A DNA stretch of 63,996 nt, counting the filler, from Basidiobolus ranarum (lineage: Eukaryota), in NCBI GenBank assembly GCA_040143965.1. It is 6 parts of 6 records of this genome, joined end to end, with 100 filler letters (N's around TTAATTAATTAA, not from the genome) between each part and the next. Parts side by side here need not be neighbours in the genome. Positions count along the whole stretch, not along the records: positions 43,748 to 54,566 come from JASJQH010007540.1; 5 more parts are not named here. The stretch is one strand, 5' to 3'. The position numbers and the translations under genes are program-made. Position 1 is the first letter of the stretch, and every line of letters begins with the position of its first letter. Shown piece by piece: positions 10,855-54,699 of the stretch. Under the pieces are notes generated by a model. That model made no database searches. It was not told the origin of the DNA and worked only from the letters and a program-made list of their open reading frames with translations.

Positions 10855-10954
10855 NNNNNNNNNNNNNNNNNNNNNNNNNNNNNNNNNNNNNNNNNNNNTT
10901 AATTAATTAANNNNNNNNNNNNNNNNNNNNNNNNNNNNNNNNNNNNNNNNNNNN

Positions 10955-21794: not shown

Positions 21795-21949
21795 NNNNNN
21801 NNNNNNNNNNNNNNNNNNNNNNNNNNNNNNNNNNNNNNTTAATTAATTAANNNNNNNNNNNNNNNNNNNNNNNNNNNNNNNNNNNNNNNNNNNNACCTCC
21901 ACTTACCTGAGCATAGTCTATTCACTTAATTCATCTTGATACATACGAG

Positions 21950-32419: not shown

Positions 32420-33471
32420 TTTTCGATCTCTATAAAGTACCGCTGTAACATACAAGTTTATTTCGGAGATCAAGCCAGCTGATCGGAGTGCACTCTAAGA
32501 AATGATCTAAGTTCAATATTCTTTTTATCGAATGTTAGCTCCCCCCCCCAATTCAATTCAATTCAATTATATTATCATACATCACTCCAACATTCTTTTG
32601 TCTTCCAATTTGAGTATTTCCCATATTTATTGTCATCTGAATGCCATTTTTGTTTTCTATAAAGTAATCTTTAGAGTTTGGTTGAAAATACTTTGCGATA
32701 GAAAAAAACTAACAAGGAGATTCAACNNNNNNNNNNNNNNNNNNNNNNNNNNNNNNNNNNNNNNNNNNNNTTAATTAATTAANNNNNNNNNNNNNNNNNN
32801 NNNNNNNNNNNNNNNNNNNNNNNNNNCTAATAATAATAGATGTCCTGATTGTTACTTTGTTTAGACTAGTATATATGCTAAATAGAGTTCACACCACCTG
32901 GTGCTTTTCATCCTCCCCTGAGCTACGAGGCATTTGGTCTGCCAACTGCGTGGCTGTTGCAGGTAATTTTATGATGCAATAGTTACTAGCATTAGCAATT
33001 CTTTTTCTGATGTTCAGCTCCAGCTTACTACATATTCAAAGAGAAGTGTAAATTATTATGCACACTTATCGCGATTTTGAAACTTATATAATATTTTGTA
33101 TCGTTTGTTATATTGGTCTCTGAAGTTAGATATCTAGTCTATGCTGATTGCGCAGACTCGGATCCTCCAAGCCCTCCGGCTTCACTTCTTATTTTCTAAA
33201 CATTTATCATAAACAACATAATACTGCAGGGTCAATAATCTAATACCAATCACTGTCTTTATTATTTTCTGGATATATTCGTAGAACGCTTATAAATTAT
33301 ATTCATGTAGTAGGTGAACCAGTTTTTGTAAAGCATGATTGGTAAAATATTTGTGGTTGATATCAATCATGTCAAGAGCTGTCTGGGAGATTGAATAGGG
33401 ATGGTTGTAAAATCTCAAATCTTTGAGGAGATGGAAAACTGAGGCCTCGTGGCAATGTGTAATCTAGTAGG

Positions 33472-40630: not shown

Positions 40631-42088
40631 TTATATCGGTTGGGATACAAGTTTTTCCTCTTGCAAACATCTGTTACATTGACACACAAAGCCATATATA
40701 GGGCCTAGGTGTTCTCTTCTACTGCGAAGATCCATATTAGCAACCGGGTAGTAAAAGATATTTATCTCATCGCCAGACTTCACAATACCACCAGGATTGT
40801 CTCTAAGCAAAATTTGGACAGTCAAGCCATGAGTTTCAAATTTGGAGTTGGATTCACAGCTATGATTGACCATCGCCGCTAAAGTATACAGACCAATTCC
40901 CGCTTCAACTATTTTTTTAGTAGAAAGGGTAAAGGCATTAGGATCGATGATTAGTTGTAGATGTACAAACCAGGGAAAATCAAAGGAATGCAAAGTGTCT
41001 GATGCATGAAACCTGTCAAGCTCTAGACACTCCACAAGGCCAATATATTCTCGAAGATAATGCAAGATACATCCTTTCCCAGATGTCCCAGACACTGAAC
41101 GATGTATTTTGTCAATGAAGGAGTTGGTAGAAGTAGCCACATCGCCGAGACTAAATAGATAGGGGAGTCCCGAGTAAGATAAAGGTGTTTGATGATATTC
41201 GGAGTTGGGACTAGCCAAGCACTTTGCTGCGAGCTCACCACTAAGTTGTGCATTCAAGGACAATTCATAATGCACATAGCCTTTACGTGAAAAGTTACTA
41301 GTGCAAACAATGTTATGATGGTTTTTCCAAGCTTCATCTCGGCAGGTGGGCCCACAGTAAAATACTCCAGTGCATCCGCTTGCACATGTAACACGCTCTC
41401 TCCCCAAAGTGCTTATACAGTTGCTGCAGTATTTTCTTTTGTAGTTATCCTCTAAAATCCAGACAAGAGGATCTTGGTCAACGTATACTATTTCTCCGGG
41501 GAGCATGGTTTTTGTAGCGATGACACGGTTCCCGCAGCCATCATCTTCGTAATGAATCTTCATTTTTTGGGGCTCTCCCCTGGCTTTGCAGTTTTCTGAT
41601 ATCACCTTTTCATAATGTTCAATATCATTTCTTGATGTTGGACGATCAGTTAATTGAAACTGGAAATTCGGGGCTTTAAAATTGGTGGTTGGTAATCTTG
41701 GCTCTCCGGTAACGAGGTCCTTTATTGAGCTCTCATGGAAAGCTTCCAATTCTTCATCGTTCAGCTCTGGGTGTGAAGCCTGGGCGGAGGTGAGGTTTGG
41801 GATAAAATCTGGGACGAGATATTTCAGGTATTTGTCTGCGGCAGTACAGGATATAGCGTTGGCAATATCAGATGTTTCCCAACCAGTTGCAGTACAGATC
41901 TTGTTCAACAAGTTAAAAGCTCGATAACTCCAATAGCTGTCCCCAGGGGCTAGTTCCAGGCATTTCAGTACGTCGTATACTGCAATTTGTGGACAACTTG
42001 ACAAGTAAAGGTGTCTGGCTTTCTGATAGTGCAATGAGATAGTTGCGTCGGAAAAACTTTCGGCGGAGTTAAACGCACTCTGAGTCAT
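40631..42088 (-). CDS. SET-MYND (SMYD-type) lysine methyltransferase, intronless
   Basis: GNRVIAT..GEIV; MYND CSNC..CASGC..YCGPTCRDEAW..HNIVC; MVNHSCESN; GDEINIFY; post-SET YGFVCQCNRC. Confidence 0.9.
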   Translation of the reverse strand: MTQSAFNSAESFSDATISLHYQKARHLYLSSCPQIAVYDVLKCLELAPGDSYWSYRAFNLLNKICTATGWETSDIANAISCTAADKYLKYLVPDFIPNLTSAQASHPELNDEELEAFHESSIKDLVTGEPRLPTTNFKAPNFQFQLTDRPTSRNDIEHYEKVISENCKARGEPQKMKIHYEDDGCGNRVIATKTMLPGEIVYVDQDPLVWILEDNYKRKYCSNCISTLGRERVTCASGCTGVFYCGPTCRDEAWKNHHNIVCTSNFSRKGYVHYELSLNAQLSGELAAKCLASPNSEYHQTPLSYSGLPYLFSLGDVATSTNSFIDKIHRSVSGTSGKGCILHYLREYIGLVECLELDRFHASDTLHSFDFPWFVHLQLIIDPNAFTLSTKKIVEAGIGLYTLAAMVNHSCESNSKFETHGLTVQILLRDNPGGIVKSGDEINIFYYPVANMDLRSRREHLGPIYGFVCQCNRCLQEEKLVSQPI

Positions 42089-42824
42089 GTCAATTATTAA
42101 TATACTTGATCCGTTGGCAATTTAGAAATTCACTGCAATAGATGAACTGATGAATGATGGATGGATCAGTATTGCCTAGTGAGAGGCTATTTGAATAACT
42201 TTACATGGGTTAATTCTAATTCCTCCCAAAACCACCAAACTCTGATATTCTCACAAGCTGGCACGGAACAGTTCCATGGGTAGGATGATAGACTAGGTTT
42301 AGTAAACTCCTCAGATAATCCGGTGACCAAAGCATGACTTCATCAGGATGTGATACCTGTGTCTGATCTGATTGGTGTTAACAGAGCGATTTATTACCAT
42401 AGTCACTGAAAATATGCAGATTGTGATAGTTGTTGAAACTGACTTTACAAAGCCCAGCATCGGTTAATTTTTTATAGTATGGATGATGGCTAGTGAGGCT
42501 TCATTTATACAAGGGGCTTAAAGGACAGATAATCAAATCTTCTGATGTAACGTTGGATATTGTTTATGATTCGTGTATAAATATTTGGATTATTGAATAC
42601 ATAATTTAATTGCCGGAATTGTATGAGAAACTAAGCATAGCTAATGGCTTTATGGGAACTCTAATAGGTCTGGTGGATAATCTGACTTTATTATATATGC
42701 CTAGATACAAGAGAACTTGGTGTTACCATGGTTTCTTTTAAAACTTCAGTCTGGCCCGTAATATTATTTGTTTAAGGCTCTTTCCTATTGTTTGTTCTAT
42801 TGTCAGCTTTCAAAGGAATACATC

Positions 42825-43647: not shown

Positions 43648-43747
43648 NNNNNNNNNNNNNNNNNNNNNNNNNNNNNNNNNNNNNNNNNNNNTTAATTAAT
43701 TAANNNNNNNNNNNNNNNNNNNNNNNNNNNNNNNNNNNNNNNNNNNN

Positions 43748-43962
43748 ACGCATCTCAAGGTAGTCAAGCACTGTCCAACTCGAATCAATTCGATCAAGCT
43801 CGGTTGGGCGACCAGACTATATACCAACCAGCTCAGCCACCTCAACCCCAGATCATCATTCCCCAGTGGCCAATGCACCGTCCCAGAAGAACCTACAAAA
43901 AATATAAGAAATTTGCACACCGTTCCTTCAAGATCAGATATTTTAGTGGGAATAGACACTAG
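43748..43962 (+). CDS. Cationic-tail secreted protein family, copy C (3' part; 5' lost at contig end)
   Basis: Open frame ASQGSQALSNSNQFDQARLGDQTIYQPAQPPQPQIIIPQWPMHRPRRTYKKYKKFAHRSFKIRYFSGNRH*; paralogous to 52981-53535 and 54169-54566. Confidence 0.85.
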
Positions 43963-44140
43963 TGTATCCTTGCTGTATACTGACGATCCAGAAACCAGTG
44001 TTGTGTTCTGTGTGCTATTTGCTGCCCAGGTAGCTGAATATTACCAATAAACTGTATACTCAATCTTATGAATTACTAATATTTACGCTTGATCTAGAAC
44101 ACCAAGATTTGATAGGACATTCTTGGCGGTTATTTATTGT

Positions 44141-45726
44141 TCAGTAGTTCTCAACTTTTAAATCATTAATACCGAACTCTTCATTTTGTTCGTAACTTCT
44201 CACATACTCTGTTACTGTTAGATTGAGGTCGTCTCCAGTAGAATTCAATGATTGCACGAAGGTATTACCCAAGGGGTCATCTAAGATCAGTGTTAGTTCA
44301 TGACCAAGCTCAATAGCCATACCCTGGAATCAAAAAGTCAGTTGGCTATGAATACGAAAGTTGATATTCGTGCTTAACAAACCTTCTCAAGGCTTTCGAC
44401 GAAGCGAGCGAATTTCTCCTTCTTTTCTGATGAGACAGAGTCTCCAATGAGAAAGGGTGTGTGTGATTTGAAGTCGAGTAAAAGTCCCTCGATTGTAGTG
44501 TATTTGCCAGGAGATAGGATAGATTCGAATTGCAGCTCGGGTATCCTTATTTTACAAGAGTCAGATTTGATCACTTCCCGTGATAAATCGCTGCTATTTT
44601 TGACGCTTAATGTTATTAATTTTCCATGAGCTGCAATCGAACCACTCGGCTTTACTTCATTATTTTTATATCCACAACGCTCACACACTGTACTCATAAC
44701 TATAATCTCTTGGAAGTTTGGTATTTTCAAAATGCACATCCGGGTCTCACTTGGCACTCCACAGGAGTAGCAAGGCTCCTTGAACACACCAATTTCACTT
44801 GGTGCGGAAGAACCTATATCTGACGAGCACTCATTTGGCTTCTCTATTGGAATCTTATTATCGAACAATCCAAGACATTCATTCTGCTGCTTAGATCTTG
44901 TGTAAAATCTGACTTTGAGCTTTGGATCGAGGCTTGGTGGGCTCAGACTCTCAATAAAACTGTTTCCAGATACATCATCTATGGAAATGGTCAAAGGGTC
45001 ATAGCAACTCAAGTGCTGTTTCATTTTGGAGATTAGGTCTTCCAATTTGGCATATACTTCTGGATTCATTACCTAACAAACCGATCAGCACTATATACAA
45101 GTCGAATTTACAACGATCCAGCGAACAACTCAATACCTTACGAACTGGTTGCTCCATTGAGAGGTCTTCCATGATCCTTTGCATCAAACCTTCTAGAGTA
45201 GTTAGAACACCTTTTTTGGAGGTGTTGGGTAATTCCAAGTCTAATTCGTGTAAACGTATGGAAGCATACTCAGATCTTACAATTTGACGTGCATAATCCT
45301 AAAAGTTAACAACTTGTAGGTTAACAAACGTTTAATGAACCTAACTTTGTTATGGAAAAGAGTCAGGTTACCTCCTTTGAATTGAGAGTGCACGTATACT
45401 CTGCACCTTTCTCTTCAATTGCACCACCGTATTGAACTTGAGTATTCGCATCTTGGCAAAATGAACACTGAAAACTCATGATAATCACTTCTTTGAAATG
45501 TGGGATCTTGGTTAACATAATTCGAGTTTTCCCCTAAAGTAATATACAGTTTGAACCAGTTGTAATAATTGACAAGATATATAGCGAGAATATTTGTCTA
45601 TATGGTGTATGGATTTCTTTAAACATAAGAATAGAGGTTTTTTACATTTTGTTCACAACTCATACACAAACTCTCGACTTCTAATATAGGCGTATCTGCC
45701 TTTATATCGGAGAAAGTGATCTCCAT
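44141..45726 (-). CDS. ZPR1: Zinc finger chaperone ZPR1
   Basis: EVESLCMSC..GKTRIMLTKIPHFKEVIIMSFQCSFC; second finger CYSC..IPNFQEIIVMSTVCERCGYKNNEVK; DDPLGNTFVQ; multi-exon. Confidence 0.93.
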
Positions 45727-46024
45727 AAGAAACGTTACTTGAAATACTGTATTTTTGGTCTTTGGGTTGTTTGGAATACTTTATCAAGTATAAAGAGAAT
45801 TGAAGTAACTAAAGAAATGGAAAAAAATTGCCTTTTTGGAGTAAATTTAGGTGGTTAGATTTACTTCTATTTAATATTCTATCTAAGCTATTTCTAGTCG
45901 AATGATTTTGGTAGTACTGAATAGATGCCATCACCCATACCATCGATATAATTGGTCTATCTTTGAATCCTCTGAGAGTATATTAAGGAGAGGAGTGTCG
46001 ATTGCAACGAAGCCTTCGCTTACC

Positions 46025-46321
46025 ATGACCCTCTACCTCGAACACGTCCTTTTCCTAACCCTCCAACCCATGAGTGAGGAAGCTTGGGAAGACCTTCACC
46101 AGACCTTTATGGCCATGAAAAAGGAGGTTCCCGGTATCGTTGACCTCTCGTTAGGAAAGAACATATCTCCTGAACGCGCTCAAGGCTGCACTCACGCCTT
46201 GAGAGTTCTCTTCGAAGATAAAGAGTCTTTGAACATTTATGCCGACCACCCCGCCCACGTCCTCTTCAAGAGCAAGCTTCAACATCAATCACCTCCTATC
46301 TGTCTTGATTGGTATATTTAA
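46025..46321 (+). CDS. Stress-responsive A/B barrel (Dabb) protein
   Basis: MTLYLEHVLFL...VPGIVDLSLGKNISPERAQGCTHALRVLFEDKESLNIYADHPAHV; intronless; ATG at 46025 more likely than 45902. Confidence 0.85.
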   Translation: MTLYLEHVLFLTLQPMSEEAWEDLHQTFMAMKKEVPGIVDLSLGKNISPERAQGCTHALRVLFEDKESLNIYADHPAHVLFKSKLQHQSPPICLDWYI

Positions 46322-46434
46322 ACAATGCAGCACTCATAATCTGTCACCAATAAACCCCCATTCCGTATTATATATAATGATATTCAAGCTTAAATTAAGT
46401 CACAACTTTATGGATTAGCTTTTAAATACATGCA

Positions 46435-47369
46435 TTAGATCTCGGTTGTAGCAACCAATCTTCGAAGGGCTACTAAGACCTGTGAGAAATCTTCGAATGG
46501 TATGTATTTCACACCTTCCTTGATGCACCAAGCCTCTAAATCGCATCCTTTCTTAGCAAATAATATATCTGCCTCACGTGCAGCCGAGATATCCGACAGC
46601 CCATCTCCCAAAAACACCAGTGTTGGTTTAGTCTCTAGAGTCTCCTTCACTCGTCGCATAGTAAGTGATTTGTCATGACCAAAGTCGCTGTAAACCATTC
46701 TTGTCAACCATTGGAGGGAATAAAATGGAAGGATTGTTGAAATTTACCTGTCATCATGGTACACAGGTATCCAATGATTATCCACAATTTTCACTCCGTT
46801 AGCTTCGACTTGAATCTTGTTAGATAATTCGACTCCAAGGAAGGTGATTAAAAAATTTCGAATTAATGGAGCAATCCCACTAATCATAGGAGAATTGTCA
46901 GAGTGAATTATTTCCTGAGTTCTCATGGAATACTTACCAACTAACCACAGTTAGGGGTATATTCTCGGAATCACAATACTCAACAAAGCCCTTAAAATGT
47001 GGATCAGCGCGAGTAATCTCTATCAAAGTAGGTCCTTTAGTTAGTACCATTCTGACTTTCAATACCAAAGTGAAGAGATACCCTTTAAGAAACTCGAAGC
47101 TTCTTCCCAAGAAACATTGATGCCTTCAAATTGACGAATCATACCATCTCTAGAATGAATGCTCGAGTTAAGCTCATGAAAAAGGTGAGGGGTGAAAAGG
47201 AACGGGATAGTTACCTGAAATTTATGGTTCCTTGTTTGATGGCTTCATCGACCTTCTCTCTAACTTCAGCACCCATACATTTGTTGATTAAGAGAGTTAA
47301 AGAGTCCTCCCTAGTAATGGTACCATCAAAATCCGAAAATATAAATAAATTGTTCAATGTAGTAGACAT
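46435..47369 (-). CDS. HAD-superfamily phosphatase, yeast YNL010W/Pyp1- or MtnX-like
   Basis: FSDFDGTITREDS, DPHFKGF..IPLTVVS.GIAPLI, FGHDKS, FLGDGLSDISAAREADILFAK; several introns. Confidence 0.88.
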
Positions 47370-47717
47370 GGTATCAATATCAGGACACACAAAAGAAGTC
47401 AACCCACTGAATTCTATAACAACTGGGTTTTAATGTAAACAAATCCATGTCTTGACTTATTACTAATCGAGAGCAACAGTGGATTCTTAAAATAGATCAA
47501 TTTATTTCGAGATGGGGCTTGATTTAACCGTTTTGGATATGTTGGTGGATATGTTGGTAATTCTAGATGGTTAGGGTACATGCACTACGGTTCCATTAGA
47601 AGAAAATCAAATTCATTCAATATCTGAATAATACACGTTGATATGGGTTATTTTTGCTCTACAAATGCAAATCTAAGCGAAGTATTTAATACAAAACAGT
47701 GACGGTAATCAAAAAAA

Positions 47718-49018
<1,301 letters not shown>

Positions 49019-49452
49019 TGTATAGCGGTAGTAAGTTCAATAGAAACCTATGAATTTGTTGAGATTCCAAGCTCGGTCAAGTTATACCCAAATATTCAGG
49101 ATAAACTTATCGATGAACCCGAGTCAATAATAATAATAAGAAGCCACACAGAGAAATCATGGAAGCCACGGCCATGCAAATATGGACACAACTGTGTTAG
49201 GTAATTTTACTTTGTATAAACTATAACATAATCGATCGATAATCTGTCGAAATGTGGGTATTTTAATGGACAGAAGATATCCATGGAAATATTTCAATGT
49301 ACAGATTAAATCCAACGAACCGATAGAATGAGCTCGATGTGCATATCTGGCAAAATATAACAAATAGAGAGAATCGTGGAGATAAATAAAACTAATCCAG
49401 TTTAAGAATGATAAGTGATGGCTGGGCAACTGGGCAGTTTTCAACACATATG

Positions 49453-52400
49453 TCAAGCGTAATCATCTAAAATGTGTATATTTCGACGATCTACGTCTTT
49501 GGATTTCAAAGGATCGTCCGAGTCATTGCCCACCGACTTTCCTATCAGTTTTTTAGTACGAATGGGTGGCCTTCTCTCGGTTCCAAGGTCCAAGGACTGG
49601 CTCATTCTCATGGGAGTGACTTCCCGTAAATTGTCAGTCGACCCTGATGGCGTAAAGGTTATTGATGCTCGGCCATCCCATACATTGGTAGGTTCTTCTC
49701 CCCCGTTAAATATCCAATTATAGTTTGGATTATTACTAGAGCGGTTAGAAGCGAAAGGTGACTGTCCATCTTCGGCCAAAATACTCTCCAAAGATGATAA
49801 AACGTCCGCTTTTGGAGATACGTGCTTAGATGGTAAAAGTGTGACTTTGCTTTCGGCTTGAGTCTCCACTGCTGATTCGGAGGTTGCGGTATCTTGCTTC
49901 ACGCTCTCTCCATCGTTCTCTATGTTGGACTCTGATTGCCACGAAGATATTTCAAGTTGAGGGGATGTGGCACCAAGCACTTCATAAAACTGGGATTCAG
50001 CGGTACTGGGAGGGGCGGGAGATGCCTCGATTTGTTCTTCAATATCACTCTCTTCTAATTTGGGACTGGTTTCGCGTTGGACAGTAATACCGAGGGTAGA
50101 GGTGGCATTGAGTGATTGCTCATCAGAATCACTGTGATGTTCCACCAGCTCCCAATGATCATCACCATCTTGGTACCATTGCTGGTCAAGAATGTTGGGA
50201 TTCAAATCCACCGTTGTCTTATTCAATACATCTCTGATGTGCTTTAAACCAATCAGAGCAGTCACTATGTCCATTTCATTTTTGATTATATCGGGGCTTT
50301 TGGACGGAGTGGTGATTTGACCACTGAGGAATTGATCAGGTTGTGTTCCACTTTGAATTAGAGACTTGGCATATATCCCGTTTTCAAGTAAGCTTACGCA
50401 TTTATCCATCAGAGAACCAATCTCGAGGAATGCTGGGGAGTCGAGGGATTTGGACGCAGGCACGGATTTGTTGTTGCTAAATGATGGCTCATGGATGGTG
50501 GTGGGTGAGACAGGCGGATTCTGTGGTATGGCGTGTTCATAGATACTCTGAAAATCCGGCTGACTTGAGATAGTATCATGGGGGCTCGGTTGGTTATAGG
50601 ATAATGTACGTTTCAAGTAAGTTTGAAGAGGATTCACGGTTTTTTTGATATCAAGCATCGCTTTGTTTAGTTGAGCAATGGCTTCATCTCGTTTTCTCGA
50701 TGGTCGTGCCTTGGCTATTTGGTGTTTTGATACAGGTAAAGTTCCACTAGCGTCTGAAAGGGCCCTCCGTGGCCTTATGCTACTAGGCCTATTAACTTCC
50801 TCGATGTAGTTATTGTACAGGGTAGGTGCTTGACGACCAGCACTTTTAGCATTCTGAAGAATGATATTTGAACCTCCTTCAAATCCCAGATGGTCACGAA
50901 GTTGTAAAGCTTGCTTAACAAACTGGGTCGGATCAGGTACTGACGGAAACTTCATAATTCGGTGAAGACACATTGCGTAGTCAGCAGCAAGTACTAGAAT
51001 AAAAAAAGCAGTTACAGTTAGTCTGGGCATTGTAGTTGTCCAAGTGCAATGATTAGTACTAACAGTCTTCACGGATATACAGGAGCATGGCAATGCACAC
51101 GTAGTCCACTAGATTCAAGTCAGAGTTATCAGCGAATATACCATCCCATAGGCATAGGAGCTCCTTCAAAGGAAATTCGCGGCCAAAAAGAAGACGCAAC
51201 CACCGGCTAAGAAAAGAATATTTAATCAGTGAAATTCTTGTTGGCGGAAAAAAGAGAGTAGTCATCATTGCACTCACATTCCGTAGAGCTGAGGTTCAAT
51301 CTCTAAAGATTCCAAGTAGGCATAAAGTTGAGGATCATATGTCTTGAGCAATTCATGATGTATACGGTTGCATTTTACAACGATTGGTGTTTGGTTGGGA
51401 GGCTTGCAGTGACTCGTTAGTAAGCATCTATTGTAAGTTATGTATTCATGTGCATTATTACCATTGATGCCGGCGATTGATTCCCTAGAAGATTAGACGA
51501 GTCTAAATTCTAAGAACATATAGGTTAGACCAGGGATCGATGGATGAATTCCTAGTTTTTCTCTACCTTCCCCATACTTTTGAGGGCCTGAAGTGTCCTC
51601 TGATTCGATAATTCATCATTAAATTCGTACCACTCCTTTGCGGACTTCATCAGATTAGAGAATAGCGAGAAAGCATCATGTTCCACGTAGTCTGGATTAA
51701 GAACTACTTTCATCAGTTCTAGCGGTATATCACTTCATAGAGATAAGTTATGCATTAGTTGAAACATTGAATGCCAAAGATGTGGTGTCAATCCACCTAC
51801 TCTTCTTTTTCTGTGGGAATCGAAGAGAAATCTAGACACTCATCATCTACTACTTGAAGGATAGGCGCCAGTAACTCATGCATTCCTTGACGGTATGAAA
51901 CATCTTCATGAAGTTTACAATAAATAAATAACATGTTAATCAAACGCGTTTGGACGGTAGAAGCTCGAAAATATTCGCTATCAGGGAAACTTTTACGTGA
52001 GCTACGTTAGTATTGCTTCAATAGATTCGTAAATAAACAGAAGAATAGCAACATACGTGCGTTCAACATCTTGCTTAATGATCTTCCGAAGTTCACCATC
52101 TTTGAAGTACTGTATCCAGGGGCTCTAAAGAGTAGAACCTTTAAGTTTACTTCTTGAATAGTCGATGTTCTTCTTCAAAACAATTTACCTCCTGATCTAA
52201 AGATAGAGGGTTGTTGATAGCCAAGTTTTGCGCTTTTTGGGCAGTTTCTTCTGCATTAGGATCAAAGACAAACCTCTTTTTTAGGTCCTCATAATATTGA
52301 CGTTGTTGTTGAAGAGCTAAAGACCAAGAAGAAGTGTCCAGAGAAGGTAAACAATCCAAGTATACCTAAGAAAGTGTCCAGAACTTGTCTAGTATGGTTT

Positions 52401-52631
52401 CTTTGGGGGTTAATGGAGGGCGATATAAAAATACCTTCCAGCACAGAGATCTCAAACCCTCTTTACACGAAGTACCGAATATACCACGGTCTTTGAAAGT
52501 CTGGAGTGAAACGGTTGATGATTCTAAGGTTCCTCTCCATCTTATACTGTTTATTTACGAGGAGTAATCAATAATTATTCTAGCTTAATGAATATAGAAG
52601 ACAGTTACCCAAGAGAATTATACGTCTTCAT
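49453..52631 (-). CDS. TBC-domain Rab GAP, TBC1D5/Gyp6-like
   Basis: GLRSLCWK, NNPLS, IKQDVERTFP, YRQGMHELLAP, YVEHDAFSLF, IEPQLYGIRWLRLLFGREF, LLYIREDLLAADYAMCL; long low-complexity C-terminus. Confidence 0.92.
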
Positions 52632-52980
52632 AGTTCCTGAGCTAAGATTGATATATACATAAAGTGACACTAGCTGGCCTATAATCGGTACAAAAGGGGC
52701 AAAGCAAAAGCATGTCACAATTGAAAGTCCATACGTTTTTACATTTATCTATATATATTCGACATCTCAGTATTAAGAATAGGATCAGCATCATGGTGTG
52801 TATGTATGGTATATAATGCGATATTTCTTTTACAAATTAGTGATAATATAGTAGATAGTAATACCAATTAATAAATTGCTCCAACGTAAAGTTTATTGTA
52901 AATATTTAGCAGATAAGGAGCTGGATATTTTACAAGTAAACAAATTGATCATTGCAGCGCAGAGTTGTCAATTCATAGTT

Positions 52981-53535
52981 TTAGTGTCTTCTATTGCCAC
53001 TGAAGTATCTGATCTTGAAGGCACTGTGGCCATATTTCTTGTACTTCTTGTAAGCTCTTCTGGGTCGGTGCAAAGCCCATTGGGGAATGATAATTGGTGG
53101 TTGAGGTTGCTGAGCTGGTTGGTACACGGTTTGGTCAACCAACTGAGCTTGATCGAATTGATTCGAGTTGGACAGAGCTTGACTACCTTGAGATGAATGA
53201 CCTTTTACTTCATCCAATAATGCCTCCTTGGGCTGGAGGTGAGACAAGTCCACGTTCAATTTAGCTGGGGCCACTTCATGACGCTCGTAGATCTCAGGGG
53301 CCTCTTCACGGACTTCTGGCTCACTTACTGTGGTTTCTGGGACAGTTTCTTGGCTGATGGTACCATGTTCCACGGGCACAATGGCTTCATGGGTTTGGAC
53401 AGGCACCACACAAGGGGTTACTAGTTCTCCACAAACTGTACCACCATAGGCAGCTGAAGCGTCATGGACAGGAACTCCTGACACTGTATGGATCAGGATG
53501 CAAGAGGATACAAGAAGGGCGAAGACTGATTGCAT
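52981..53535 (-). CDS. Cationic-tail secreted protein family, copy A (complete, 184 aa, intronless)
   Basis: Signal peptide MQSVFALLVSSCILIHTVSG|VPV, Glu/Val/Pro-rich region, conserved core NVDLSHLQPKEALLDEVKGHSSQGSQALSNSNQFDQ, Q/P stretch, HRPRR|AYKKYKKYGHSAFKIRYFSGNRRH. Confidence 0.88.
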   Translation of the reverse strand: MQSVFALLVSSCILIHTVSGVPVHDASAAYGGTVCGELVTPCVVPVQTHEAIVPVEHGTISQETVPETTVSEPEVREEAPEIYERHEVAPAKLNVDLSHLQPKEALLDEVKGHSSQGSQALSNSNQFDQAQLVDQTVYQPAQQPQPPIIIPQWALHRPRRAYKKYKKYGHSAFKIRYFSGNRRH

Positions 53536-54168
53536 GGTTGAAGAGTTACAGATGTCGAAGAATTCGATGTCGAATGATAATCCAAGGAAGGATGAGGAGT
53601 GCTTTTATTGAAAGGAGTATTATTTAATTACCTTCCTTAATAACACAAACTTTCAACTCTCACTGGAGCAAAATAAGCTTCTACTCGTAATTGAACGAAT
53701 CTTCCGTAACAAGTATTAGCAATAAACGCTGAATTATACATTTCTCAGTGTTACTGGTGAGAAAACTAGAAGCTCAGGTTTTCAGTAAATTAAATTATTC
53801 GGGTTCAGAAAACTTTTCTCACATCATATGTACTCTGTTGATATCTCATTTCTGCTCAACACTTAAATTATATAGAGTGTTTGATTTCAAAGAGTCGAGT
53901 AAGATGAGAAAGAGCAATCAAATGATCTAATTCTTCATAAGCGATAGCACAAAGATACTTGAAAGTGAAAGGGTTTTTAGCCTTTCTTGATCGATCAACT
54001 TTGACTTCTCGATATTTTACTTTTATGATCTAGTCATTAAATTGTATGAGCTTAAGATTTACTAGTATTTATTATAACTGTTTGGTTGCTAGGAGAGCTG
54101 AATATTTCAAGTAAAGACAGTAGTCAACTAAATGAAAAAACTGTTCTTTGGTAGTTGATATACCACCA

Positions 54169-54566
54169 TTAGTGTCTGTTTCCACTGAAGTATCTAATTT
54201 TGAAGGAACGATGAGCAAATTTCTTGTATTTTTTGTAGGCTCTTCGGGGTCGGTGCATTGGCCACTGGGGAATGATGATCGGAGGTTGAGGTGGCTGAAC
54301 TGGTTGGTACACTGTCTGGTCAACCAACTGAGCTTGATCGAATTGATTCGAATTGGACAGAGCTTGACTACGTTGGGAAGAGTGACCTTTCACTTCGTCA
54401 AGTAGTGCTTGTTTGGGCTGTAATTGACTCAGATCAACATTCCATGAAGAAGGACTCGCGGAATATGAAGGGGCCTCTTGAGTTTGGTCTTCAAACTGTG
54501 ACTGGTCGCCTTCAGCTGGAGCTTGTTCCATTTGACCTTGATCGAAAGTAGATTTCTCACCTGCTG
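54169..54566 (-). CDS. Cationic-tail secreted protein family, copy B (5' lost at contig end)
   Basis: Frame open to the gap: AGEKSTFDQGQMEQAPAEGDQSQFEDQTQEAP..NVDLSQLQPKQALLDEVKGH...HRPRRAYKKYKKFAHRSFKIRYFSGNRH*. Confidence 0.85.
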
Positions 54567-54699
54567 NNNNNNNNNNNNNNNNNNNNNNNNNNNNNNNNNN
54601 NNNNNNNNNNTTAATTAATTAANNNNNNNNNNNNNNNNNNNNNNNNNNNNNNNNNNNNNNNNNNNNGGCTATAGATACGTTGCTTTCTGTTTCTGATAT

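What the first reader, a model, noticed from the sequence alone, without database searches (positions are those of the whole stretch)
43748..54566. Three-paralogue secreted family that looks like a prepro-precursor of a conserved cationic/aromatic peptide
Seen: three related ORFs in one contig (43748-43962 +, 52981-53535 -, 54169-54566 -). The complete copy has a signal peptide, an acidic region that differs between copies, a conserved core, a Q/P linker, then HRPRR and a tail with no acidic residues: AYKKYKKYGHSAFKIRYFSGNRRH (24 aa; 5 K, 3 R, 4 Y, 2 F), or (A/T)YKKYKKFAHRSFKIRYFSGNRH in the other two. Established: R-x-x-R and RR are kexin/furin sites, and an acidic propiece ahead of a cationic C-terminal peptide is the layout of many antimicrobial and toxin precursors. 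Inference: an uncharacterised fungal peptide system (antimicrobial, cytolytic or signalling). Alternatively it is a Tyr/Lys-rich adhesive or cross-linking wall or spore protein, like the mussel adhesive proteins. I recognise no domain in it.
Basis: partly seen in the sequence, partly recalled or inferred. Interest (0 to 1): 0.8.

Follow-up and report, generated by a model that had tools for sequence, protein, structure and literature searches.

The report
Expanded Basidiobolus secreted two-module protein family
The three genes are a small part of an undescribed family of more than a hundred secreted, floppy proteins found only in the frog-gut fungus Basidiobolus; they more likely build a sticky or protective extracellular material, such as the spore's glue droplet, than release an antibiotic peptide.

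Summary
In detail: three paralogues lie on one 10.8 kb contig, two cut by its ends. They belong to a Basidiobolus-only superfamily with two conserved polar modules. The genome has 103 matches to module A and 83 to module B, as A-only, B-only and A+B genes in tandem arrays. There is no Pfam or PDB match, and AlphaFold2 gives no fold. Core and Tyr/Lys tail are under strong purifying selection (dN/dS about 0.06 and 0.03), so the genes are real. The released-peptide reading is weakened. A KR/RR site precedes the tail in 20 of 30 B. ranarum but 2 of 25 B. meristosporus copies, and 23 of those 25 have KR/RR inside the tail. The tail is invariant, not hypervariable, and spacer charge varies independently. 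The same core also carries Cys/Arg tails with no upstream site. In B. meristosporus, A-only and B-only genes share contigs and also occur fused. Best reading (0.5): a two-component secreted structural or adhesive material, the capilliconidium glue being one candidate. Released bioactive peptide: 0.25. Expression, cleavage and location are untested. The scan's notes showed no earlier report of this family.

The parts
52981..53535 (-). Copy A: complete intronless B-only gene, 184 aa; present in NCBI/UniRef as a gene model on a 10,819-base contig
53476..53535 (-). Predicted signal peptide, residues 1-20 (heuristic; SignalP not run)
53410..53433 (-). C-x6-C motif (C35-C42), shared by the Tyr/Lys-tailed members of both species and by most A-only proteins
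53257..53403 (-). Acidic, variable spacer (residues 45-93, net -8). Across 16 paralogues the region between signal and core is 48-154 aa, net -8 to -28
53119..53235 (-). Module B (residues 101-139): conserved Q/N/S-rich core around the SNQFDQ motif; dN/dS about 0.06; the element shared by all tail types
53071..53118 (-). Pro/Gln linker (residues 140-155)
53056..53067 (-). RPRR, candidate kexin/furin site; kept in the close B. ranarum clade, not across the family
52984..53055 (-). Cationic/aromatic tail, 24 aa, net +8, dN/dS about 0.03, not more amphipathic than shuffles
54169..54564 (-). Copy B: 131 aa visible, 5' end cut by the contig end; acidic spacer, module B (about 54298-54420), RPRR, 23-aa tail; tandem with copy A, 633 bases upstream
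43750..43962 (+). Copy C: 70 aa visible, 5' end cut by the contig start; second half of module B, linker, RPRR, 23-aa tail; faces copies A and B across about 9 kb of housekeeping genes
43648..43747 (.). Artificial contig linker (N44-TTAATTAATTAA-N44), left end of contig C7540
54567..54666 (.). Artificial contig linker, right end of contig C7540

Best explanation
The three genes encode the B-only, Tyr/Lys-tailed branch of a Basidiobolus-specific superfamily of secreted, intrinsically disordered block proteins that are made in bulk and assemble outside the cell into a material. Proposed working: (1) the signal peptide sends them into secretory vesicles (inferred from sequence). (2) The conserved modules A and B are the assembly units and A- and B-proteins act together (inferred from genes that carry A, B or both; no contact shown). 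(3) Acidic spacers and Lys/Arg+Tyr/Phe patches condense by charge and cation-pi pairing, and the tail is the surface-binding or cross-linking end (inferred by analogy). (4) C-x6-C and tail cysteines, and possibly tyrosinase-oxidised tyrosines, cure the material (inferred). Kexin may trim the B. ranarum copies at RPRR, but as a maturation step, not as the purpose of the family. The adhesive droplet of the capilliconidium is the leading candidate site; spore or zygospore wall and gut-stage matrix are the others. Shown: gene structure, copy number, selection, taxonomic range, module layout. Not shown: expression, secretion, cleavage, assembly, location.
For: Dosage-type expansion: 103 A and 83 B matches; nine core-bearing copies plus a remnant in the 11.7 kb contig C7471; separate expansions in each species. 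Tail and core are held nearly constant across 16 paralogues (dN/dS 0.03 and 0.06, against 0.26 for the spacer); module A 0.09-0.11 in two A-only subfamilies. Module B occurs with three tail types (Tyr/Lys; Cys-rich plus poly-Arg; short Cys-Arg), the last two preceded by acidic residues, not by a basic site. B. meristosporus P0111 reads as an A-only protein joined to a B-only protein, and 10 of 11 listed A-only proteins have a contig of the same length as a module-B gene, several with close locus tags. Arg/Tyr patches with RR pairs also sit at the N-terminus of those A-only proteins, so dibasic pairs look like a by-product of the patches. No fold in two AlphaFold2 runs (mean pLDDT 56 and 52). 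57 tyrosinase-domain matches on 33 contigs. Basidiobolaceae capilliconidia carry adhesive material at the beak (PMC13370150, PMC5126542; passages).
Against: No expression, proteomic or localisation data. Tyr is only about 5% of the mature B-only proteins and is concentrated in the tail, lower than in classic DOPA glues (recalled). No tyrosinase match lies on a family contig, and secreted tyrosinase domains mark all Zoopagomycota (PMC9391592 passage), so they are not specific. Modules A and B are not detectably related to each other (hhalign probability 3%). Codon usage is no different from other genes of the window. The RPRR site is a good kexin-type site in 20-21 of the 23 closest paralogues, and none of 30 B. 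ranarum tails has an internal KR/RR, which a released peptide would also predict. A/B linkage cannot be seen in B. ranarum, where the A-only and B-only arrays found lie on separate short contigs.
Confidence: 0.5

Rival explanations
1. One reading: a prepro-precursor from which a kexin releases the cationic C-terminal peptide, which acts as an antimicrobial, membrane-active or signalling molecule in the gut or soil; module B is a carrier or packaging domain, as the cathelin domain is for cathelicidins (recalled).
For: Signal peptide, acidic region, basic site, +8 tail. KR/RR upstream in 20 of 23 close paralogues and no internal KR/RR in 30 of 30 B. ranarum tails. Four kexin-type P-domain loci. 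One core with several tail types resembles a carrier with swappable peptides. B. meristosporus is the strain richest in Kex2-processed precursors (43; PMC7329392 passage), and Kex2 releases candidalysin from Ece1p (PMC5784256 abstract).
Against: Upstream KR/RR in 2 of 25 B. meristosporus and 0 of 7 more distant B. ranarum members; internal KR/RR in 23 of 25 B. meristosporus tails (many are near-copies, about three types). The tail is the most conserved part, whereas amphibian AMP precursors have a conserved signal, a hypervariable positively selected peptide and charge balance with the propiece (PMC7106915 passages). Here spacer charge runs from -8 to -28 against a tail of +7 to +9 (rho 0.27, p 0.31). 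Tails are 17-26% aliphatic/hydrophobic and their hydrophobic moment does not exceed shuffles (p 0.06-0.55). The model does not explain A-only genes or A+B fusions. The lack of internal KR/RR is about one independent observation (0 seen, 12.7 expected over 16 near-copies).
Confidence: 0.25
2. Host- or microbiome-directed secreted effectors that act uncut, binding polyanions (mucin, nucleic acid, bacterial surfaces) through the basic tail to colonise the herptile gut or shield hyphae.
For: Genus-specific, expanded, secreted, with broken copies (stops inside several matches), as effector families often are (general knowledge); poly-Arg tails in one branch; gut lifestyle (PMC7466969 passage).
Against: Purifying, not diversifying, selection in every region tested (all dN/dS below 0.7); no folded domain; near-identical tails in over 20 copies.
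Confidence: 0.1
3. Spore storage proteins: Gln/Pro-rich, intronless, tandemly amplified proteins deposited in protein bodies as a nitrogen reserve, in the manner of cereal prolamins (recalled analogy).
For: B-only mature proteins are 15.5% Gln and 9.9% Pro; tandem arrays with remnants; spacer length changes by repeat gain and loss.
Against: dN/dS of 0.03-0.06 on tail and core is tighter than a reserve needs; several chemically distinct tails and two modules.
Confidence: 0.08

Closest known systems
Uncharacterised Basidiobolus proteins (e.g. B. ranarum K7432_012792, K7432_009542-009549; B. meristosporus K493DRAFT_305788, K493DRAFT_304145)
   Same: The only sequence relatives found: 23 of 23, 44 of 44, 60 of 60 hits, and all 37 hits whose source name was seen.
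   Different: They are annotated as hypothetical, uncharacterised or secreted proteins; a few carry stray automatic labels (CBM1, SCP, C3H1, glutamine amidotransferase in a probable fused model) that Pfam did not support for the members scanned.
Amphibian skin AMP precursors (temporin/brevinin/palustrin; PMC7106915, passages)
   Same: Signal peptide, acidic region, basic site, cationic C-terminal stretch, multi-locus family.
   Different: There the signal is conserved and the peptide hypervariable and charge-balanced; here the signal is the least conserved part (56% identity), the tail the most (92%), and there is no charge balance. No homology found.
Fungal Kex2-processed repeat proteins, KEPs (PMC6339444, PMC7329392; passages and Table S2), including Ustilago Rep1 repellents
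   Same: Secreted fungal proteins with dibasic sites; Rep1 shows that Kex2 products can be structural surface material.
   Different: No peptide repeats between Kex2 sites; none of the 43 B. meristosporus KEP accessions matches a family accession seen here.
Mussel foot proteins and other Tyr/Lys wet adhesives (DOPA role from PMC13022425 abstract; the rest recalled)
   Same: Secreted proteins with adjacent Lys and Tyr, some His, that condense and cure; tyrosinases available in the genome.
   Different: No homology found; Tyr/Lys confined to a 23-24 aa tail on an acidic chain; two conserved polar modules with no counterpart; DOPA untested.
Arthropod low-complexity secreted proteins (DUF4794, GYR clusters in the ESM Atlas)
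   Same: Nearest by language-model features, scores 0.75-0.80.
   Different: Below the tool's 0.9 bar and within the range of shuffled proteins; the A+B protein P0028 gave no usable hit. A lead on composition only.

Membership tests
KEP (Kex2-processed repeat protein) | Signal peptide | tested here: met
   Hydrophobicity filter and predicted helix; SignalP not run
KEP (Kex2-processed repeat protein) | Three or more similar repeats separated by Kex2 sites | tested here: not met
   One tail per protein; spacer repeats are acidic and have no dibasic separators; absent from the 43 listed B. meristosporus KEPs
Amphibian-type AMP prepro-precursor | Acidic propiece before a cationic C-terminal peptide | tested here: met
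   Spacer -8, tail +8 in copy A
Amphibian-type AMP prepro-precursor | Conserved processing site before the peptide | tested here: inconclusive
   KR/RR 20 of 30 and 2 of 25; RxxR 23 of 30 and 16 of 25
Amphibian-type AMP prepro-precursor | Conserved signal with hypervariable, positively selected mature peptide | tested here: not met
   Signal dN/dS 0.47 at 56% identity; tail 0.03 at 92%
Amphibian-type AMP prepro-precursor | Charge balance between propiece and peptide | tested here: not met
   Spacer -8 to -28, tail +7 to +9, rho 0.27, p 0.31, 16 genes
Amphibian-type AMP prepro-precursor | Released peptide with antimicrobial activity | not testable with these tools
   Needs peptidomics and assay
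Dikaritin / ustiloxin-type RiPP precursor | UstYa (DUF3328) gene nearby | tested here: inconclusive
   No PF11807 match in the genome, but the control rang nowhere; no modifying enzyme among 28 neighbouring ORFs scanned
DOPA/Lys wet adhesive proteins | Adjacent Tyr and Lys in a secreted disordered chain | tested here: met
   Tail 12-17% Tyr, 28-38% Lys+Arg; no fold
DOPA/Lys wet adhesive proteins | Sequence homology to a described adhesive family | tested here: not met
   No Pfam family above E 0.006 for 56 members; no PDB match for either module at E 10
DOPA/Lys wet adhesive proteins | Tyr hydroxylated and protein located in the adhesive | not testable with these tools
   Tyrosinase domains exist but are unlinked
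HET-s-like two-repeat functional amyloid (recalled) | Two homologous pseudo-repeats that stack | tested here: not met
   Module A against module B: hhalign probability 3.3%, cross-HMM E above 0.3

The most novel reading that the evidence does not exclude
This superfamily is the protein basis of the Basidiobolus capilliconidium glue: a two-component fungal wet adhesive in which basic module-A proteins and acidic module-B proteins, encoded by over a hundred genes, co-assemble on secretion, with Tyr/Lys or Cys/Arg ends binding arthropod cuticle and curing by disulfide and tyrosinase cross-links, and kexin trimming as a possible trigger.
Probability: 0.22. Interest if true: 0.85.

Novelty: new variant of a known kind. 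Interest (0 to 1): 0.6.

Why it matters
A family of this size points to something the genus needs in quantity, and I found no description of it in 10 literature searches of an open-access library. The adhesive droplet is how Basidiobolus spores ride arthropods into frog and lizard guts, and none of the passages read names its components. The family gives exact peptides to look for in droplets, walls and secretomes, so the question becomes directly testable. If the material reading holds, it is a new sequence design for a biological glue or coat. If the peptide reading holds, it is a highly amplified cationic peptide from a gut symbiont and opportunistic pathogen. Genus-only modules could also serve as diagnostic markers.

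Tried and rejected
Complex prediction of three module-A plus three module-B chains gave no verdict (score 0.01, mark 0.34, alignments not used, no controls folded); it is no evidence either way. AlphaFold2 of copy A (20 rows) and of an A+B protein (56 rows) gave no fold, so no fold search was run. The idea that A and B are charge-swapped repeats was rejected (one search had rows out of register and was redone). Pfam: only sub-threshold hits (GvpK 0.049, ProSAAS 0.006 in 1 of 56). PDB: none. ESM Atlas: leads under 0.9 or nothing. Codon bias as a stand-in for expression: no signal. Shared upstream motifs: only TATA-like words. Neighbouring genes: ZPR1, Dabb barrel, protein kinase and TBC Rab-GAP in the window contig; amidohydrolase, RSN1, Hsp70 and DPBB elsewhere; no peptide-modifying cluster. 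Haplotype or assembly duplicates as the source of the copies: rejected, as copies B and C match others at 80-97% DNA identity and dS is high. Two weak non-family hits (P0062, a long repeat protein matched on 43 positions; P0063) were set aside. No RNA data could be examined. Dykstra and Bradley-Kerr 1994 on the droplet's ultrastructure was seen only as a citation. bioRxiv supplements were not seen.
Full report
Observation. The three ORFs exist as described. The window is a chain of contigs joined by N44-TTAATTAATTAA-N44 linkers, and 43748-54566 is one contig, G000:C7540. Copy A (52981-53535, -) is complete. Copy B (54169-54564, -) lies 633 bases upstream in tandem, and copy C (43750-43962, +) faces them; both are cut by contig ends. 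Between them lie ZPR1, a Dabb barrel, a protein kinase and a TBC Rab-GAP. Copy A has a gene model in NCBI/UniRef. Its database relatives are named Basidiobolus ranarum on contigs of the same lengths as those of G000, which identifies the species.

Size and range of the family. Copy A finds 100 matches at E up to 10 in the genome, including arrays on C7471 (nine core-bearing copies and a remnant in 11.7 kb), C1261, C1160, C2797 and C93. More distant members show two conserved modules: B, about 40 aa around SNQFDQ, which the three window genes carry, and A, about 45 aa around TRKHDNLN. Single-module searches give 103 matches among 128 candidates for A and 83 among 93 for B. These are lower bounds, include broken copies, and count A+B genes in both lists. 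Among the 90 loci fetched by then, 97 distinct ORFs carried a module: 38 A, 43 B, 16 both; partial ORFs may be misclassed. A signal-peptide filter kept 59 as complete: 29 A, 14 A+B, 16 B. All named relatives are Basidiobolus: 23 of 23, 44 of 44 and 60 of 60 (the last two scored only the best 8000 candidates). A profile search of 1.84 billion representatives gave 46 hits: 37 named Basidiobolus, 7 not looked up but plainly family members by sequence, and 2 weak unnamed ones. Pfam, PDB and the ESM Atlas gave nothing usable. Both AlphaFold2 models are unfolded beyond the signal helix.

The genes are under selection. For 16 complete B-only genes, pooled pairwise dN/dS is 0.47 for the signal, 0.17 for the N-terminal C-x6-C region, 0.26 for the spacer, 0.06 for module B, 0.12 for the linker, 0.39 for the four RPRR codons and 0.03 for the tail. 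Pairs are not independent, no intervals were computed, and the RPRR value rests on few sites. Module A gives 0.09-0.11 in two A-only subfamilies and 0.23 in the Cys/Arg-tailed A+B genes, where module B gives 0.18 and the tail 0.34. A tree of module B plus tail (61 rows, 96 columns, bootstrap not settled) puts all Tyr/Lys-tailed genes of both species on one side of a branch (100/97), with separate B-only expansions in B. ranarum (21 rows, 97/94) and B. meristosporus (11 rows, 97/89).

Test of the peptide-precursor reading. I counted sites in members with a recognisable core and a complete Tyr/Lys tail: 30 from B. ranarum and 25 chosen B. meristosporus proteins, many of them near-copies; fragments lacking either part were left out. 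Kex2 prefers KR or RR, less KK (PMC6339444 passage). KR/RR upstream of the tail occurs in 20 of 30 and 2 of 25, RxxR in 23 of 30 and 16 of 25, and KR/RR inside the tail in 0 of 30 and 23 of 25. Within the 23 closest paralogues, including the three window genes, the site is good and the tail free of internal sites, so cleavage of these copies is plausible. Across the family it is not kept: three A+B members have Pro after the last Arg, one B. meristosporus type has a single Arg, and Kex2 would cut most B. meristosporus tails into pieces. A site at that place arises in 49% of shuffles. Compared with amphibian AMP genes (PMC7106915 passages), the pattern is inverted: variable signal, invariant tail, no charge balance. 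The tails are not more amphipathic than shuffles. The family is not in the published KEP list for B. meristosporus (43 accessions compared by eye).

What the anatomy suggests instead. Module B, not the tail, is what the B-bearing genes share. It is followed by a Tyr/Lys tail, by an acidic stretch and a Cys-rich poly-Arg tail, or by a short Cys-Arg end. Module A occurs alone, behind Tyr-rich or Cys/Arg/Tyr-rich N-termini. In B. meristosporus, P0111 reads as an A-only protein followed by the C-x6-C, spacer, module B and tail of a B-only protein. Of 15 listed members of one cluster, 11 are A-only, 3 are B-then-A models (possibly gene-calling fusions of neighbours) and 1 is B-only. Ten of the 11 have a contig of the same length as a module-B gene. 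This fusion-and-neighbour pattern implies that A and B proteins work together. Many constant copies, disorder, charge blocks, aromatic-basic patches and spaced cysteines are the usual make-up of secreted structural proteins (general knowledge). Basidiobolaceae have a need for one: capilliconidia carry adhesive material at the beak that fixes them to arthropods (PMC13370150 and PMC5126542 passages). The genome has 57 tyrosinase-domain matches on 33 contigs and 4 kexin-type P-domain loci; the tyrosinase contigs do not overlap the family's, and secreted tyrosinase domains mark the whole phylum (PMC9391592 passage).

Against this reading: there is no expression or location evidence. Tyr is about 5% of the mature chain. 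Codon usage and upstream words give no support. A and B are not related repeats. Linkage of A-only and B-only arrays is not visible in the fragmented B. ranarum assembly. The glue assignment is a fit between an unexplained structure and an unexplained family, not a result.

Literature seen. Passages: PMC13370150, PMC5126542, PMC9391592, PMC6339444, PMC7329392 (with Table S2 rows), PMC7106915, PMC7466969, 10.1101/2025.03.31.646025. Abstract and outline only: PMC13022425, PMC5784256. Ten searches listed no paper on this family; subscription journals are mostly missing, including the 1994 Mycologia paper on the droplet. Cathelicidins, prolamins, HET-s and the composition of mussel proteins are recalled. 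Look-ups in the scan's own notes by sequence and motif found no earlier report of this family; one search showed other secreted multi-copy families of this genome.

Verdict. The finding is real and larger than reported: an undescribed, genus-restricted, two-module secreted superfamily. Structural or adhesive material 0.5, released bioactive peptide 0.25, uncut effector 0.1, storage protein 0.08. It shares no sequence with known families but probably works like known kinds, so I class it as a new variant of a known kind. Interest 0.6.

Noticed in passing
window 10855-10954, 21795-21894, 32727-32826, 43648-43747, 54567-54666: Five artificial linkers; the window is six size-sorted contigs, so genes across linkers are not neighbours.
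   Followed up: yes
window 49453-51108 (-): The 551-aa ORF without a Pfam match looks signal-peptide-like at its first Met but follows the TBC Rab-GAP exons on the same strand; it is probably that gene's long last exon (the match to TBC1D5 is recalled).
   Followed up: partly
L036:5900-6982 (+) (G000:C6971): An A+B member whose spacer holds tandem KPKKHHT repeats and MEMP repeats instead of an acidic stretch; net charge +18.
   Followed up: no
L026:862-1824 (+) (G000:C7255): An A+B member whose tail keeps the aromatic residues but has lost most basic ones and gained Cys and acids.
   Followed up: no
L071, L072 (G000:C7813, C7858): Arrays of A-only genes with about eight cysteines each, split between the two ends of the protein.
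   Followed up: partly
G000, 33 contigs: Large tyrosinase-domain expansion: 57 matches, about 32 of them at the start of the domain.
   Followed up: no
P0063 (unnamed ENA protein, 168 aa): Three repeats that resemble the start of module A (E 1.3e-4); the only hint of the module outside Basidiobolus, possibly chance.
   Followed up: no
P0029, P0030, P0079, P0080, P0101, P0107, P0114, P0119, P0122, P0123: B. meristosporus gene models that join a B gene to a neighbouring A gene or to an unrelated protein; probably annotation fusions, and a likely source of stray domain labels.
   Followed up: partly
L048:4559-5818 (-) (G000:C1240): A secreted-looking protein with Cys-rich ends and a long Thr/Glu/Lys/His repeat, on the same contig as an A+B gene.
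   Followed up: no
window 40631-42121 (-): SET and MYND-finger protein on the neighbouring, unlinked contig.
   Followed up: no
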